Origin: Patescibacteria group bacterium
GTDB lineage: Bacteria; Patescibacteriota; Minisyncoccia; Moranbacterales; UBA2206
Assembly (NCBI GenBank): GCA_030837625.1
Contig: JAUPKF010000004.1
Span: forward strand, 1,075-65,074
Direction: 5' to 3'
Length of the DNA: 64,000 bases
The position numbers were made by a program, and so were the translations under genes. Within the stretch, counting starts at the first letter, position 1. Every line of letters begins with the position of its first letter. Below, in pieces: positions 5,538 through 52,294 of the stretch. The notes beneath the pieces are model-generated. The model was not told where the DNA came from. It saw only the letters and a list, made by a program, of their open reading frames with translations, and searched no databases.

Positions 5538-5676
5538 ATCAATCTCCTTCGGAGTACTAGTTGTGAATGTGCTATGTGCCGACAATAATGAGATTATCAC
5601 GACATATGTTTTAGAGCAAGTCTTGTATACTTGTTACCCATAAATACAGTCAGAGTAACATAATAAAATCATTACG

Positions 5677-6156
5677 ATGGAAAAAATCATAATCAAAGTA
5701 GCTTCCTTGGTGGTCAACAAAAAAAATCCAGAAGAAATTCTTCTTATCAAAGAAAAGACCGAAAAAAATGATCTTGCTAAGTGGAACGTATTAAAGGGGA
5801 CGTGCCTCCTCGATAAAGAAACAGTTTTTCAGGCCGCCGAAAGAGAGTGCTTTGAAGAAGCTTCCATAAAAATAAAACTGACGAAATCACTTGGATGCTA
5901 CTTAATAAAAAAACACACTGACGGTTTCAGAATACAATTTAACTTTATAGCCGAAATTGTTTCAGGCGTTCCGCGCGTTCAGGACAAAAAATATCAAGAT
6001 AAACTCAATGAAAACATAACGGAATTACGCTGGTTCAACAAATCTCAAATAAAGAAAATGGGAACGGAAGAATTTGTATCAAAAAGGACAAAGATGGTCT
6101 TAATGGATTGGATAGGAGGAAAGACCTATCCGCTGGAAATGCTCCAACAAATGTAA
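5677..6156 (+). CDS. NUDIX hydrolase
   Basis: Nudix box GTCLLDKETVFQAAERECFEEASI (RExxEE). Confidence 0.7.
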   Translation: MEKIIIKVASLVVNKKNPEEILLIKEKTEKNDLAKWNVLKGTCLLDKETVFQAAERECFEEASIKIKLTKSLGCYLIKKHTDGFRIQFNFIAEIVSGVPRVQDKKYQDKLNENITELRWFNKSQIKKMGTEEFVSKRTKMVLMDWIGGKTYPLEMLQQM

Positions 6157-27674: not shown

Positions 27675-27821
27675 TTATTCAGACCTCCGAGGTCTGCGGC
27701 CGCAGACCTCGGAGGTCAATTTGATTCGTCTATACTAGTTATAGCAGGTATTGCCGTATTCGTAAAAAATACGCATAAAAAAACAGCTCCGAACTGTTTT
27801 TATTACAAAACATCAATCGCT

Positions 27822-49411: not shown

Positions 49412-50401
49412 TTATTTCCGCATTCTTTTGCGACTATCTAGATATCTTTTTAATGCATCTTTGGAAGAAAGCCAATTGCGCCCTTCTTTATGCGCCTCCA
49501 ACCTTCCAATGCGTGCCAATTTATTCAAATATTTTTCTGTAAATTTTGATTCCTTAGCCAAATCAGCGAGCGGAATAAATTTTTCATTGCCCTTCTTGCT
49601 TGGCATTAAAATTTTCAGATAGATATCCAGCGTTCTTTCCACTGCTCGGGCAATGAAATTCACAAAATCAGCATACTCGCCTTTATCAGCTGCTGACAAT
49701 GTTTGGTAATATCTTTTGCGATCATTTTTTAGAACAATCACCAACGGAAATCCTGCCTGCATCAGGATTATATTCATAACCAAGCGCGATGTTCTACCGT
49801 TGCCATCGAAAAATGGATGGATGTATACTAATTTGTGATGCAAAATGCCAGCCAGCTCAACTGGATGCATTTTTTTCTTATTATCCCCCACCCAATCAAT
49901 CAGGTTTCGCATAAGCCTCGGGATTTCTAGCGCTTCCGGCGGCTTGTTATCCGCGCCGCCAATAATCACACCGCTATTTCTATATCTTCCCGCCCACTCC
50001 TTATCAATATTCTGTTGCACTATTTGATTAAGTGATCGGATCAAGCTTTCCGAAAAAGTATTTTTTTTATCCTTTTCAATTAAGTCATAAAGATATTCCA
50101 AGGCTTCCTGGTGATTCTTAGCCTCTAGATGATCTTTGAGCGGTTTGCCCTTGATAGTCATTCCCTCATTTATTACCAGATAGGTTTCCTTAAGTGTCAA
50201 ACTATTACCCTCAATTGCATTGGAGTTATAGGTCATTTCAATTTCAAATTGCTCCTTGAGTTTGGCAACTGCCGACACTGGCAATGGACGAAAAGAATTG
50301 AGCAAGGCCAATTTATCATCGATCCTTTTTTGAATGTTTTTGTCTAAATATTGCATATATTTCTTAAGGTGGTTTAGGTTGATATTTACAGTATACCGCA
50401 T
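49412..50401 (-). CDS. Fic/Doc family protein (putative AMPylase)
   Basis: Canonical Fic motif HPFFDGNGRTSRL. 329 aa with a C-terminal winged-helix-like tail. Confidence 0.85.
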   Translation of the reverse strand: MRYTVNINLNHLKKYMQYLDKNIQKRIDDKLALLNSFRPLPVSAVAKLKEQFEIEMTYNSNAIEGNSLTLKETYLVINEGMTIKGKPLKDHLEAKNHQEALEYLYDLIEKDKKNTFSESLIRSLNQIVQQNIDKEWAGRYRNSGVIIGGADNKPPEALEIPRLMRNLIDWVGDNKKKMHPVELAGILHHKLVYIHPFFDGNGRTSRLVMNIILMQAGFPLVIVLKNDRKRYYQTLSAADKGEYADFVNFIARAVERTLDIYLKILMPSKKGNEKFIPLADLAKESKFTEKYLNKLARIGRLEAHKEGRNWLSSKDALKRYLDSRKRMRK

Positions 50402-51270: not shown

Positions 51271-51381
51271 AACTTCATGCAACATAAAGCATGAAACATA
51301 AAACACAATTCCGATTCTATATTAACATTCTTCTTACAAAAAAACACTCCAGCGTTTCCACATCGCATGATTAACAAATCC

Positions 51382-51581
51382 GAGCCGGCTGTCAGACTTG
51401 AACTGACGACCTTCATTCACCCCGCACCACTTGCCGATGAGCCGAAGATCGGACTTGAACCGATAACCTTCACTTTACAAAAGTGTTGCTCTACCATTGA
51501 GCTACTTCGGCAAATGGTGCGGGGCAAGCAAAAGTGTTGCTCCCTGCCTGCCGGCAGGCAGGTACCACTGAGCTAAGCCGG
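51382..51581 (-). other. Split or interrupted tRNA-Thr-like gene enclosing tRNA-Thr(TGT)
   Basis: Minus strand 51581 to 51511 reads GCCGGCT-TA-GCTC-AGTGGTA-[cctgcctgccggcaggcagg]-GAGC-A-ACACT-TTTG..., a tRNA 5' half with a 20-nt perfect palindrome in the D-loop. Minus strand 51411 to 51382 reads AGGTC-GTCAG-TTCAAGT-CTGAC-AGCCGGC-T, a matching T-arm and 3' acceptor. A 10-bp helix CCCCGCACCA/TGGTGCGGGG flanks the embedded tRNA. Confidence 0.45.
51439..51510 (-). tRNA. tRNA-Thr (anticodon TGT), nested inside a split tRNA-like locus
   Basis: GCCGAAG-TA-GCTC-AATGGTA-GAGC-A-ACACT-TTTGTAA-AGTGA-AGGTT-ATCGG-TTCAAGT-CCGAT-CTTCGGC-T, with one A-A mismatch at the base of the anticodon stem. Confidence 0.75.
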
Positions 51582-51595
51582 CAGCATGAGAAATA

Positions 51596-52294
51596 TTATC
51601 TCCCCAACATCCTCTCCAGCTTTCGCATCCGGCTTCTCGCCCCGATGTTTCCGGGAGAAAGTTTCATCACCTGCTTGTAACATTCCTTGGAATGATCGTA
51701 ATTGCCGATTTCAAAATAATATTCCCCCAGCCTCTCATAAGCTTCCACGTCTTTCGGATTGGCCGCAATTCTTTCGATAAGAATTTTCTCCAATTGGCCT
51801 TTCATTTCCGCTTTTGGCATAACAACTTCTTCGCTTAATGTCGGCCGTATAAACCTTCCCTCTAAATCCATTTCCGAACCTTTGTTCCTGTCCTCCGTTT
51901 CGTCATTTGCTTTCTCCAGTCCATAATTTCTGACTTTTTCCAAAAGATTATCTTCTTGGCTGCTTCCTTCTTTTTTAGCTGTTTCTTCCGCGATTTCTTT
52001 TCTTCTTTTTTTTCTTAATACTTCATTCCAAGCGGAAAAAATGTTTCCCAATCCTACAAACCCCGATCGCAATTTTCCAATTATTTTTTCTAAAACAGCC
52101 AGCATTTTTCGCTTAAATCCAATCCGACCTAAAAATGAAACGCGTCCTCCAGCCGACTGGCGGGATGTTTCATTTTCAAAAGTTTCCGTTCTTTCAACTA
52201 TCCGCGCCACATCCGGAGCCTTTTTTATCAAAAACAATATTATTCCAACAAGACTGAGAACTACTAAAACCGGTGGTATTAATGAGTACGCCAT
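51596..52294 (-). CDS. Membrane-anchored TPR-repeat protein
   Basis: N-terminal TM. C-terminal TPR-like helices (AYERLGEYYFEIGNYDHSKECYKQVMKLSP). Confidence 0.55.
   Translation of the reverse strand: MAYSLIPPVLVVLSLVGIILFLIKKAPDVARIVERTETFENETSRQSAGGRVSFLGRIGFKRKMLAVLEKIIGKLRSGFVGLGNIFSAWNEVLRKKRRKEIAEETAKKEGSSQEDNLLEKVRNYGLEKANDETEDRNKGSEMDLEGRFIRPTLSEEVVMPKAEMKGQLEKILIERIAANPKDVEAYERLGEYYFEIGNYDHSKECYKQVMKLSPGNIGARSRMRKLERMLGR

What the first reader, a model, noticed from the sequence alone, without database searches (positions are those of the whole stretch)
51382..51581. Nested tRNA locus: complete tRNA-Thr(TGT) embedded in a split tRNA-Thr-like gene with a palindromic D-loop insertion
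On the minus strand, a tRNA 5' half (acceptor GCCGGCT, D-arm, anticodon stem ACACT-TTTG) is separated from its matching 3' half (AGGTC-GTCAG-TTCAAGT-CTGAC-AGCCGGC-T) by about 110 nt. That insert contains an intact tRNA-Thr(TGT) and is flanked by a perfect 10-bp helix, CCCCGCACCA ... TGGTGCGGGG. The outer 5' half also carries a 20-nt perfect palindrome (cctgcctgccggcaggcagg) inserted into its D-loop.

This is not a normal tandem tRNA array. It could be a decaying duplicated tRNA, an intron- or intervening-sequence-bearing tRNA processed at the 10-bp helix, or the scar of an insertion.
Basis: seen in the sequence. Interest (0 to 1): 0.7.

Follow-up and report, generated by a model that had tools for sequence, protein, structure and literature searches.

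The report
tRNA gene nested inside tRNA gene
A working threonine tRNA gene sits inside the anticodon loop of a second, disabled threonine tRNA gene, and the same nesting recurs at this locus in many related ultra-small (CPR) bacteria, which points to an apparently undescribed way of overwriting tRNA genes.

Summary
On the minus strand, 51582-51383 is a 200-nt unit. A tRNA-Thr(UGU)-like gene is split after anticodon nt 35 by a 109-nt insert that holds a complete tRNA-Thr(UGU) (51511-51440) between complementary arms.

The arms give a 10-bp perfect helix, or 13-21 bp when extended. A 20-nt perfect palindrome sits in the outer D-loop.

The genome is a Candidatus Moranbacteria (CPR) bacterium. It is not a one-off:
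- Among synteny-sampled relatives, 5 more carry a nest at the same site and 6-7 carry a plain gene.
- A metagenome pattern scan found 11 further distinct nests.
- There are two arm families, multi-layer nests, and analogous nests in tRNA-Thr(GGU).
- The inner tRNA always has the same anticodon as the gene it splits.

The inner gene is the working one. It is 70/72 identical to a relative's plain gene. In the window the outer copy is disabled.

Best reading: recurrent, site-specific "insert plus replacement tRNA" cassettes, probably spread by recombination through the conserved tRNA halves, with the outer copy left as a relic. The insertion mechanism is unknown. A spliced functional outer tRNA is not supported. 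No description was found in the searchable literature, but Castelle et al. [quoted passage not shown]

The parts
51563..51582 (-). Outer tRNA-Thr-like gene, 5' part: acceptor strand GCCGGCT, TA, D-stem GCTC, D-loop AGTGGTA
   Evidence: The pattern is found only here and at the inner tRNA; chance expectation 0.00.
51543..51562 (.). 20-nt perfect GC-rich palindrome CCTGCCTGCC|GGCAGGCAGG inserted at the 3' end of the outer D-loop
   Evidence: unique in the window, 0.00 expected. The same palindrome sits in D- or T-loops of tRNA relics in L017, L018, L020 and L067.
51529..51542 (-). Outer gene: D-stem 3' strand GAGC, A, anticodon-stem 5' strand ACACT, and loop TTTG up to anticodon nt 35
   Evidence: It is identical to the matching stretch of the inner tRNA, including the lineage-specific ACACT.
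51512..51528 (-). Left arm plus 3-nt leader of the insert (CTTGCCCCGCACCA TTT), arm family 2
   Evidence: It pairs with 51420-51433. Homologous arms occur in L017, L067, L138, L155 and L023.
51440..51511 (-). Inner, complete tRNA-Thr(UGU): the functional gene
   Evidence: ARAGORN. Rfam 71.9 bits. It is 70/72 identical to the plain gene of L156, and the 2 differences form one compensatory pair.
51420..51439 (-). Trailer plus right arm of the insert (CATCGGCAAG TGGTGCGGGG)
   Evidence: The 10-bp perfect helix is 51524-51515 with 51429-51420. The MFE 21-bp helix is 51527-51507 with 51437-51417.
51383..51419 (-). Outer gene, 3' part: degenerate loop and stem remnant TGAATGA, variable loop AGGTC, T-arm GTCAG-TTCAAGT-CTGAC, acceptor strand AGCCGGC, discriminator T
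   Evidence: the only orphan T-arm in the window; acceptor pairs 7/7 with 51582-51576. From AGGTC onward it is 26/30 identical to the relic in L001 (read from the alignment printed).

Best explanation
WHAT IT IS. The unit is a tRNA-Thr(UGU) gene cut in two inside its anticodon loop. The cut lies between nt 35 and 36, although the boundary can be slid by one G. The cutting agent is a roughly 109-nt cassette made of two complementary arms and a complete replacement tRNA-Thr(UGU).
- The inner tRNA is the cell's working tRNA-Thr(UGU).
- The outer halves are a disabled copy. It has lost one base of its anticodon stem and has taken a second small insertion, the 20-nt GC palindrome in the D-loop.

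EXPRESSION (inferred). The region is transcribed with the Thr-Tyr-Thr tRNA cluster downstream of the PSP1 and TPR genes. The arms form a 13-21-bp leader-trailer stem. RNase P and RNase Z, possibly after RNase III cuts the stem, release the inner tRNA. The outer halves are by-products.

ORIGIN.
- Shown: this is one case of a recurrent process in Moranbacteria and other CPR bacteria. Cassettes of two arm families carry a tRNA of the same isoacceptor as the gene they split. They occupy the same site in different resident genes, pile up as nested layers, and leave 5'-only or 3'-only relics.
- Inferred: once formed, a nested allele spreads between genomes by homologous recombination or gene conversion. 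The conserved tRNA halves serve as homology arms. That would explain why the cargo always matches the host isoacceptor, and why the family-2 junction defect travels with the cassette into different outer genes.
- Inferred: gene conversion between inner and outer copies keeps them partly alike.
- Speculative: endonuclease genes seen in the same tRNA cluster in relatives may stimulate these events.
- Unknown: what first creates a cassette, and what the GC-rich arms and palindromes are.
For: ANATOMY.

TAXON AND SYNTENY.

PRESENCE/ABSENCE AT THE ORTHOLOGOUS LOCUS.
- Nested in the window, L001, L011, L017, L155 and L157.
- Plain in L018/L020, L019, L152, L153, L154 and L156.
- All synteny-found nests have the insert after TTTTG or before TAA.

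PATTERN SCAN. 13 of 120 metagenome stretches (11 distinct) are nests. None of 11 viral stretches is.

THE HALVES COME FROM ONE GENE. The outer acceptor halves pair 7/7 in 8 of 12 nests, and their sequences differ between genomes.

MOBILITY-LIKE COMBINATORICS.
- Family-2 arms with an A-type cargo sit inside three different outer genes: window GCCGGCT, L138 GCCGCCT and L155 GCCGACT.
- The A-type gene is itself the interrupted outer gene in L011 (family-1 arms) and L017 (family-2 arms). In L011 it is 99% identical to the plain genes of L018 and L019.
- Multi-layer nests occur in L099, L067 and L001.

SAME ARCHITECTURE IN tRNA-Thr(GGU). Family-1-like arms at position 31|32 in L156 and L023, and a D-loop-site nest in L155.

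THE INNER GENE IS THE VERTICALLY EXPECTED TYPE. It is 70/72 identical to the L156 plain gene.

THE OUTER COPY IS DISABLED. There is a D-loop palindrome and a 1-nt loss in the anticodon stem. With the palindrome kept, ARAGORN gives no isotype. Family-2 relatives share the defect TAAAT-AGGT.

GENE CONVERSION. The window's inner and outer copies share the otherwise unseen ACACT stem and the TTCAAGT T-loop.

ENDONUCLEASE-TYPE GENES IN THE CLUSTER IN RELATIVES.
- PF11645 PDDEXK_5 in L152 (E 1.8e-30).
- An HTH protein with weak LAGLIDADG-like fold matches in L011, L053, L152 and L155.
Against: - No enzyme or mechanism for the insertion was identified. No endonuclease, integrase or transposase gene was found next to the window's nest.
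- The arms of both families were seen only at Thr nests, not dispersed. A classical multi-copy mobile element is therefore not shown.
- The arms show compensatory changes: pair 1 C-G to T-A, pair 5 G-C to A-T, and inner parts that differ yet stay complementary. This means that pairing itself is selected or regenerated, and the model does not explain why.
- From the variable loop onward, the outer 3' relic is 26/30 identical between the window and L001, about as conserved as the functional tRNAs there (86-87%). The difference includes a compensatory T-stem pair, while the spacers are unalignable. That could mean the outer scaffold has a function.
- In thermodynamic folding the window's stem competes with the inner acceptor stem. 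The predicted acceptor pairing is 0.00 with the native arms and 0.68 with shuffled arms.
- There are no expression data.
- The metagenome sample was chosen by a pattern that fixes the 5' junction, so it cannot speak to site specificity.
Confidence: 0.6

Rival explanations
1. True intervening sequence. The outer gene is also functional. The arm helix directs excision of the insert, the outer halves are ligated, and the unit yields two tRNA-Thr(UGU) molecules from one transcript. This would be a new, protein-dependent kind of bacterial tRNA intron whose intron is itself a tRNA.
For: - In L011, L119, L118 and L067, joining the outer halves (removing the insert) gives a sequence that ARAGORN calls tRNA-Thr(UGU). 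For L011, L119 and L118 the joined gene reads as intact or nearly so; L067 carries the family-2 TAAAT-AGGT defect.
- The L156 Thr(GGU) outer gene is nearly perfect.
- The junctions sit exactly at the base of a helix, across a 4x3 internal loop next to the anticodon stem.
- The boundary can be slid so that the 5' exon ends in U and the insert ends in G.
- Group I introns at 35/36 are spliced in Patescibacteria tRNAs (PMC13011429).
- Castelle et al. [quoted passage not shown]
Against: - The window's outer gene lacks a base of the anticodon stem and carries a 20-nt hairpin in the D-loop.
- All family-2 nests lack 3 nt of that stem, yet it is these nests that have the best-conserved helices.
- The outer halves are mismatched in L001, L053 and L099.
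- There is no ribozyme: no Rfam match other than tRNA at E<=10, and only 37 nt of the insert are non-tRNA.
- There is no bulge-helix-bulge.
- Bacteria are not known to have a tRNA splicing endonuclease.
Confidence: 0.08
2. The outer halves plus arms are retained because they do something as RNA. They would act as a structured clamp or processing scaffold: the acceptor and T helices close the unit and the arms form an RNase III-type stem. This would define the precursor ends, stabilise the inner pre-tRNA, or regulate its maturation. The hairpins in the D- and T-loops would be selected to stop the scaffold from behaving as a tRNA.
For: - The helices are kept while the loops are destroyed. The acceptor pairs 7/7 in 8 of 12 nests, and the T-stems are paired in nearly all.
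- T-loops are replaced by stable hairpins in L032 and L099. Palindromes sit in the D- or T-loops of the window, L017, L067 and L099.
- The arms show compensatory changes.
- The relic is as conserved as functional tRNAs between the window and L001, including a compensatory T-stem pair.
- Leader-trailer stems reach about 35 bp in L155.
Against: - In-silico folding gives no benefit. The native arms do not raise the predicted cloverleaf pairing of the inner tRNA relative to shuffled or deleted arms, and in the window they lower it.
- Roughly half of related genomes do without any outer scaffold.
- The outer 5' or 3' halves are missing or mismatched in several nests (L001, L023, L053, L099).
- The similarity between relic and inner gene can be explained by gene conversion, given the shared ACACT and TTCAAGT in the window.
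Confidence: 0.17
3. Purely local history. A single ancient duplication or rearrangement of the resident gene occurred in an ancestor. It was followed by vertical descent, decay, deletions and gene conversion, with no horizontal or repeated insertion.
For: - All nests lie at the same chromosomal locus, the Thr-Tyr-Thr cluster.
- The window and L001 seem to share an orthologous 3' relic.
- Inner and outer copies share central sequence in several genomes.
Against: - The A-type gene is outer in L011 and L017 but inner in the window, L138 and L155. Deletions alone cannot convert one arrangement into the other.
- There are two unrelated arm families, and nests at three different sites in Thr(GGU).
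- Up to three layers occur (L099).
- Cargo and outer genes differ by 8-35% with fully compensated stems, yet the outer genes are often still intact. That is not expected after a long divergence of a dead copy.
Confidence: 0.1

Closest known systems
Group I introns in the anticodon loop of Patescibacteria tRNA genes (position 35/36 in tRNA-Asn, Asp and Tyr; PMC13011429), and the 'divergent group I' introns of tRNA-Thr(GGU) (Castelle et al. 2018, as cited in bioRxiv 10.1101/2025.07.03.662931)
   Same: - Same phylum and same kind of host gene.
- Same insertion region, the anticodon loop at or beside 35/36.
- Presence/absence polymorphism between relatives.
- Missed by standard tRNA finders.
   Different: - No ribozyme. 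The insert is 109 nt, of which 72 are a tRNA, against an average of about 257 nt.
- No Rfam match.
- The disrupted gene is rescued by a replacement copy rather than by splicing.
- The outer gene is often defective.
[quoted passage not shown] 2018, known here only through the one-sentence summary in bioRxiv 10.1101/2025.07.03.662931)
   Same: Small structured insertions in CPR tRNA genes. This category may overlap with the nests or with the 20-nt hairpin insertions.
   Different: It could not be checked, because the paper is not in the library. The summary does not mention an embedded tRNA.
Archaeal disrupted tRNA genes (BHB introns, multi-intron tRNAs, Nanoarchaeum split tRNAs with GC-rich complementary leaders)
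   Same: A tRNA interrupted in or near the anticodon loop, with a GC-rich helix bringing the two halves together.
   Different: - The organism is bacterial.
- The junctions face each other across a 4x3 internal loop instead of a 3-4-3 bulge-helix-bulge.
- No splicing endonuclease is known in bacteria.
- The outer tRNA is defective in many cases.
- The insert is itself a tRNA.
RNase III-excised intervening sequences of bacterial 23S/16S rRNA, and rRNA operon processing stems
   Same: A long leader-trailer helix (13-21 bp here, up to about 35 bp in L155) flanks a structural RNA and could be cut by RNase III without religation.
   Different: In rRNA the fragmented host RNA stays functional. A tRNA cut in its anticodon loop would not.
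Genomic islands and phages that integrate into tRNA genes and restore them with an element-borne tRNA segment
   Same: An insertion into a tRNA gene, often at the anticodon loop, is tolerated because the insert brings replacement tRNA sequence. Displaced tRNA fragments remain as relics.
   Different: - The insert is about 110-175 nt and has no integrase.
- It brings a whole tRNA, not the 3' part.
- There is no direct-repeat att core.
- Both a 5' and a 3' relic remain.
Intronless homing by free-standing endonucleases in tRNA clusters (phage T4 SegB; PMC2330249, PMC13096335)
   Same: - Endonuclease-type genes lie among the tRNA genes in relatives.
- There is allele replacement of tRNA-gene segments.
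- Flanking markers co-convert.
   Different: - No endonuclease gene lies beside the window's nest.
- Cleavage is untested.
- SegB systems do not produce nested genes.

Membership tests
Group I intron in a tRNA anticodon loop | Insertion within the anticodon loop | tested here: met
   The insert follows ACACT-TTTG, i.e. nt 35|36, or 34|35 if slid by one G.
Group I intron in a tRNA anticodon loop | Conserved ribozyme core (P3-P9), typically 200 nt or more, detectable with RF00028 or related models | tested here: not met
   cmscan at E<=10 on 51300-51700 finds only the tRNA and noise. The insert is 109 nt and 72 of them are a tRNA.
Group I intron in a tRNA anticodon loop | Removing the insert restores an intact tRNA | tested here: not met
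   In the window the outer anticodon-stem 3' strand is one base short and the D-loop holds a 20-nt hairpin. The feature is met for L011, L118 and L119.
Group I intron in a tRNA anticodon loop | 5' exon ends in U and the intron ends in G | tested here: inconclusive
   It is satisfied only if the boundary is slid by one G (TTT|G...G|G). It cannot be satisfied for the Thr(GGU) nest of L156.
Archaeal-type BHB intron / split tRNA | Bulge-helix-bulge (3-nt bulge, 4 bp, 3-nt bulge) at the two junctions | tested here: not met
   The junctions lie opposite each other, with a 4x3 internal loop and then a continuous 13-21-bp helix.
Archaeal-type BHB intron / split tRNA | Splicing endonuclease (EndA) and ligase in the genome | not testable with these tools
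   Only 64 kb of the genome is available. The organism is a CPR bacterium.
RNase III-processed intervening sequence / processing stem | Extended double-stranded stem formed by the sequences flanking the excised part | tested here: met
   13 bp by RNAduplex and 21 bp in the MFE fold. The whole-unit fold has z -5.9 and the arm duplex z -4.1. Stems are 13-35 bp in family-2 relatives.
RNase III-processed intervening sequence / processing stem | Cleavage by RNase III in vivo, with the host RNA functional as fragments | not testable with these tools
   No RNA data are available.
Integrase-mediated island in a tRNA gene | Integrase gene and a large element between att sites | tested here: not met
   The insert is 109 nt. 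The 10 neighbouring ORFs scanned give TPR, PSP1, L33, Fic, HIT and a DsbA-like thioredoxin, and four have no Pfam match; none is an integrase.
Integrase-mediated island in a tRNA gene | Direct repeat of the tRNA 3' segment (att core) at both ends | tested here: not met
   There is no duplicated core at the junctions (TTTTG|C...G|TGA). The outer 3' half differs from the inner 3' half in the T-stem and the acceptor.
MITE / REP-like dispersed palindromic repeat | Terminal inverted repeats | tested here: met
   The arms are complementary. The solo 20-nt palindrome resembles a family-1 left arm joined to a right arm.
MITE / REP-like dispersed palindromic repeat | Many dispersed copies per genome and a target-site duplication | tested here: not met
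   There is one palindrome and one arm pair in 64 kb. In 229 kb of CPR loci the arms occur only at Thr nests. No duplication is seen at the junctions.
Intronless homing by a free-standing endonuclease | Endonuclease gene adjacent to the converted locus | tested here: not met
   There is none in the window (tblastn; Pfam). It is present in relatives: PDDEXK_5 in L152, and an HTH/LAGLIDADG-like family in L011, L053, L152 and L155.
Intronless homing by a free-standing endonuclease | Presence/absence polymorphism with co-conversion of flanking sequence | tested here: inconclusive
   The polymorphism is shown. The family-2 junction defect TAAAT-AGGT accompanies the cassette into four different outer genes. 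That fits co-conversion but does not prove it.

The most novel reading that the evidence does not exclude
The nests are the footprint of a previously unrecognised selfish or semi-selfish system in CPR bacteria. It would consist of ORF-less, hairpin-armed cassettes that insert into single-stranded loops of tRNA-Thr genes and survive because they carry a complete replacement tRNA of the same isoacceptor. Because the cargo recreates the target, invasion can repeat, which would give Russian-doll nests. The 20-nt GC palindromes in D- and T-loops of relics would be empty versions of the same element. The system would be driven in trans by an unidentified nuclease or recombinase, with the endonuclease-like genes scattered in the same tRNA clusters as candidates.
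Probability: 0.3. Interest if true: 0.85.

Novelty: new variant of a known kind. Interest (0 to 1): 0.66.

Why it matters
**Annotation.** Nests and hairpin-bearing relics are invisible to tRNA finders. They can be mis-scored as introns, pseudogenes or missing tRNAs when CPR genome completeness is assessed.

**Genome evolution.** An essential single-copy tRNA gene in a minimal genome is being overwritten repeatedly. The result is layered relics, hypervariable acceptor and T stems, and conserved GC-rich arms. This is a tractable record of gene replacement, and possibly of a new kind of mobile cassette that carries its own antidote.

**RNA biology.** The long leader-trailer stems around a tRNA, together with the loop-specific hairpin insertions, suggest processing or quality-control rules in CPR bacteria that have not been described.

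**If only debris.** If it turns out to be only debris of recombination, it is still a useful caveat for intron surveys in this phylum.

Tried and rejected
1. Intron-aware ARAGORN on the native sequence. It finds only the inner tRNA. At a very low threshold it gives a spurious tRNA-Ala reading that merely reuses the outer acceptor and T arm.
2. Choosing a splice junction by ARAGORN on all joined constructs. Almost every junction is accepted, so this does not discriminate.
3. Exact-protein look-ups of the window's own TPR, L33 and PSP1 proteins. None is on record.
4. The genome-contig scan with PSP1 gave only 5 loci.
5. The "insulator" idea, that the arms help the inner tRNA fold in the presence of the outer halves. 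Base-pair probabilities with native, shuffled or deleted arms give no consistent benefit, and in the window the effect is the opposite.
6. Phage or plasmid origin.
   - The viral-contig pattern scan found no nests.
   - blastn against INPHARED and PLSDB matches only the inner tRNA.
7. Group I identity of the roughly 210-nt insert in Thr(GGU) of L152. No Rfam hit at E<=1. This agrees with the published remark that these "divergent group I" introns escape RF00028.
8. Identity of the 196-aa HTH protein family.
   - Pfam, NCBIfam and PDB sequence searches were uninformative.
   - Foldseek found nothing significant.
9. A MAFFT alignment of the family-2 arms for formal pair counting misplaced the L155 bulge. 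The pairs were read from RNAduplex output instead.
10. Six literature searches found no description of a tRNA nested in a tRNA in bacteria. Castelle et al. 2018 could not be read.
Full report
**1. The observation**

The unit runs from 51582 to 51383, which is one base off the stated coordinates.

| Segment | Coordinates | Sequence |
|---|---|---|
| Outer 5' part | 51582-51563 | GCCGGCT TA GCTC AGTGGTA |
| D-loop palindrome | 51562-51543 | CCTGCCTGCCGGCAGGCAGG |
| Outer, up to nt 35 | 51542-51529 | GAGC A ACACT TTTG |
| Left arm and leader | 51528-51512 | CTTGCCCCGCACCATTT |
| Inner tRNA-Thr(UGU) | 51511-51440 | complete tRNA |
| Trailer and right arm | 51439-51420 | CATCGGCAAGTGGTGCGGGG |
| Outer 3' part | 51419-51383 | TGAATGA AGGTC GTCAG TTCAAGT CTGAC AGCCGGC T |

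- ARAGORN and Rfam see only the inner tRNA, at 71.9 bits.
- The outer 5' motif and the palindrome each have a chance expectation of 0.00 in the window.
- The outer T-arm is the only credible orphan T-arm in 64 kb.
- The outer acceptor strands pair 7/7.
- The arms give a 10-bp perfect helix. RNAduplex extends it to 13 bp, at -24.2 kcal/mol against -12.4 for shuffles, with 0 of 500 shuffles as good.
- The MFE fold extends it to 21 bp. The whole unit has z = -5.9.
- With the palindrome and the insert deleted, the joined halves are called a tRNA.
- One correction: the outer anticodon-stem 3' strand is one base short (A-TGA against AGTGA).

**2. Context**

- The neighbours are PSP1/RicT, a TPR protein, then Thr(UGU), Tyr, Thr(GGU), L33 and Trp.
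- PSP1 homologues place the genome in Candidatus Moranbacteria, within CPR/Patescibacteria. The closest is RIFOXYA12_FULL_44_15 at 92% identity.
- The nesting is not an assembly artefact. The equivalent nests in relatives are identical in independent assemblies from NCBI, ENA, JGI and Logan.

**3. Relatives at the same locus**

The locus was fetched through PSP1 synteny, without reference to the tRNA sequence.

- Nested Thr(UGU): L001, L011, L017, L155 and L157.
- Plain single gene: L018/L020, L019, L152, L153, L154 and L156.
- No tandem pair was seen.
- In every nest the insert lies at the same place, after ...TTTTG and before TAA....
Thirteen of them (11 distinct) have a complete tRNA-Thr(UGU) 12-66 nt downstream of the junction, usually followed by the matching 3' half. 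None of 11 viral stretches does.
- Rfam shows that these contigs carry the same Thr-Tyr cluster.

**4. Anatomy of the family**

Two arm families exist.

| | Left arm | Right arm | What follows |
|---|---|---|---|
| Family 1 | CCYGCCYGCC, often CCTGCCCGCCAGTCGCC | GGCRGGCRGG | An intact TAAACAGT |
| Family 2 (includes the window) | CGCCAGYYCCRCAC; CTTGCCCCGCAC in the window | GTGYGGGR | TAAAT-AGGT, i.e. 3 nt of the outer anticodon stem missing; TGAATGA-AGGT in the window |

- Family-2 arms pair very well, with z from -4.1 to -5.6. Stems are 13 bp in the window, 19 in L017, 21 in L138, 13 in L067 and about 35 with loops in L155.
- They pair through compensatory changes. Pair 1 is C-G or T-A, pair 5 is G-C or A-T, and the inner parts are unrelated in sequence yet complementary.
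- The outer acceptor halves pair 7/7 in 8 of 12 nests. Their sequences differ between genomes, so each pair of halves comes from one real gene.
- The 20-nt palindrome of the window looks like a family-1 left arm fused to a right arm. The same palindrome, with 0-3 changes, sits in four other places:
  - the T-loop of the outer relic of L017;
  - the D-loop of a broken tRNA-Tyr copy in L017;
  - the T-loop of a second-layer relic in L067;
  - the T-loop of displaced Thr(GGU) 3' halves in L017, L018 and L020.
- Other relics have their T-loop replaced by a GC hairpin (L032, L099) or carry a long D-loop hairpin (L099).

**5. Which copy works**

- The window's inner tRNA is 70/72 identical to the plain gene of L156. 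The two differences form one compensatory pair. It is 90% identical to the plain genes of L018 and L019.
- In the window the outer copy is disabled by the D-loop hairpin and the stem defect. With the palindrome kept, ARAGORN assigns no isotype.
- In some other genomes (L011, L118, L119) the outer gene would be intact or nearly so if the insert were removed. The L011 outer gene is 99% identical to the plain genes of L018 and L019, so there a resident gene was interrupted recently.

**6. Evidence for repeated, cassette-like events**

- **a. Same cassette, different hosts.** The same arm family with a similar A-type cargo lies inside three different outer genes: window GCCGGCT, L138 GCCGCCT and L155 GCCGACT.
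- **b. Same gene as host.** The A-type gene is itself the interrupted outer gene in L011 (family 1, cargo GCCGACT) and in L017 (family 2, cargo GCCGTCC).
- **c. Layering.**
  - L099 shows three successive 5' fragments.
  - L067 shows two 3' halves.
  - L001 pairs an A-type 5' fragment with a B-type 3' half. It can be derived from a window-like ancestor by one more invasion and two deletions between repeats.
- **d. Other tRNA-Thr genes.** Thr(GGU) genes carry analogous nests. L156 and L023 have family-1-like arms at 31|32, and L155 has a nest at a D-loop site.
- **e. Matching cargo.** The cargo always has the same anticodon as the gene it splits.
- **f. Arms confined to nests.** The arms of both families occur only at these nests in 229 kb of CPR sequence plus the window.

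Recombination between a nested allele and a plain allele in alternative registers would also yield the observed "5' fragment plus complete gene" arrangement (L023, and L154 for GGU). It would likewise yield "complete gene plus 3' fragment" (L018 for GGU). This is inference.

**7. Most likely working**

Shown:
- An essential single-copy tRNA gene is interrupted at a fixed site by a short insert that carries a replacement.
- The replacement is the conserved, canonical tRNA.
- The outer copy is variably degraded.
- The arms are selected, or regenerated, to pair.

Inferred:
- The inner tRNA is released from a cluster transcript by RNase P and RNase Z. The arm stem is a plausible RNase III site.
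- Nested alleles move between genomes by homologous recombination through the conserved halves. This explains the isoacceptor matching and the travel of the family-2 junction defect into different outer genes.
- Inner-to-outer gene conversion explains why the window's two copies share the otherwise unseen ACACT stem and the TTCAAGT T-loop.
- Gene conversion may also explain why the 3' relic is 26/30 identical between the window and L001 from AGGTC onward, while the spacers are unalignable.

Speculative:
- Endonuclease genes in the cluster drive the turnover. L152 has a PF11645 PD-(D/E)XK gene right after Thr(UGU).
- Neither gene is in the window.

**8. What does not fit**

- The relic's conservation and the preservation of helices while loops are destroyed could mean that the outer scaffold has an RNA-level role.
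- My only test of such a role was negative. The test asked whether the arms insulate the folding of the inner tRNA. In the window the stem actually competes with the inner acceptor stem.
- The origin of the GC-rich (CCYG)n/(CRGG)n arms and palindromes is unexplained. So is their restriction to loops of tRNA genes.

**9. Comparison with known systems**

- **Group I intron.** Not one. There is no core, it is too short, and there is no Rfam hit.
- **BHB intron.** Not one, given the junction geometry and a bacterial host.
- **Integrase island.** Not one. It is 109 nt, has no integrase and has no att repeat.
- **Classical MITE or REP.** Not shown. It is single copy and has no target duplication.
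- **Closest analogy.** It works most like an island that repairs the tRNA gene it disrupts, taken to the extreme of carrying a whole tRNA. Its stem resembles rRNA processing stems and IVS.
- **Literature.** Group I introns at 35/36 in Patescibacteria tRNAs are published (PMC13011429), as are "divergent group I" introns in Thr(GGU). Castelle et al. [quoted passage not shown] I could not read that paper, so some overlap with prior description cannot be excluded. Six full-text searches found no report of a tRNA nested in a bacterial tRNA.

**10. Verdict**

- The finding is one instance of a recurrent and apparently undescribed architecture in CPR bacteria.
- I rate it a new variant of a known kind (disrupted tRNA genes, and insertions that restore their target), with interest 0.66.
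- The most novel reading still open is a self-rescuing cassette that targets tRNA loops. I give it a probability of about 0.3.

Noticed in passing
window 41923-41955 (+), just upstream of tRNA-Thr(CGU) 41956-42029: A double GC hairpin, TCGCCTCACCGGCGA CCTGCCGAAGAGGCAG, abuts the 5' end of tRNA-Thr(CGU). Almost the same module (TCGCCTCATCGGCGACCTGCCGAAGAGGCAGG) lies in L154 4310-4341, between an old Thr(GGU) 5' fragment and a new complete Thr(GGU). It may be another junction module of the same process.
   Followed up: partly
L011 6650-6925; L152 5199-5475: tRNA-Thr(GGU) is interrupted right after the anticodon (ATGGTAA|) by a 210-220-nt insert. ARAGORN misses these genes, and Rfam group I gives no hit at E<=1. 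This matches the published 'divergent group I' introns of CPR Thr(GGU) (cited in bioRxiv 10.1101/2025.07.03.662931 and PMC13011429).
   Followed up: partly
L152 4022-4420: A free-standing PF11645 PD-(D/E)XK endonuclease gene (E 1.8e-30) lies between a plain tRNA-Thr(UGU) and tRNA-Tyr. This is the Pfam family reported for endonucleases encoded in cyanobacterial tRNA-fMet group I introns (PMC13011429).
   Followed up: partly
[not shown]
   Followed up: partly
L017 about 5570-5680; L067 about 5540-5620: Broken tRNA-Tyr copies lie just upstream of the intact tRNA-Tyr. One has a D-loop palindrome or a T-arm replaced by a GC hairpin, and the acceptor 3' strand is lost. The overwriting therefore also affects tRNA-Tyr.
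   Followed up: no
L017 5927-5975; L018 5432-5485; L020 about 1415-1465: The intact tRNA-Thr(GGU) has a new T-stem (CGCAG/CTGCG). It is followed within 8-13 nt by the displaced old 3' half (T-stem CCGGA, as in the window and L019), which carries the 22-nt palindrome CCCTGCCTGCCGGCAGGCAGGG in place of its T-loop.
   Followed up: partly
L154 3982-4089: An inverted repeat, CTTGCCTGCCAAATTTTT ... AAAAATTAGGCAGG, encloses about 75 nt of AT-rich non-tRNA sequence directly against the 5' end of a plain tRNA-Thr(UGU). The arm-like repeats can therefore bound something other than a tRNA.
   Followed up: no
window 27682-27717: A 36-nt perfect GC-rich palindrome, GACCTCCGAGGTCTGCGGCCGCAGACCTCGGAGGTC, lies in an intergenic-looking stretch. 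It is unrelated in sequence to the tRNA-associated palindrome.
   Followed up: no
window 42322-42351: A 30-nt near-perfect palindrome, TCCGCCATAGGCGGA|TCCGCCTATGGCGGA, lies about 300 nt downstream of tRNA-Thr(CGU). Its context was not examined.
   Followed up: no
window 49412-50401 (-): A Fic/DOC-domain gene sits immediately downstream of tRNA-Trp. The closest relative, L001, has a CTP_transf_like gene there instead. This may be another insertion next to a tRNA gene.
   Followed up: no
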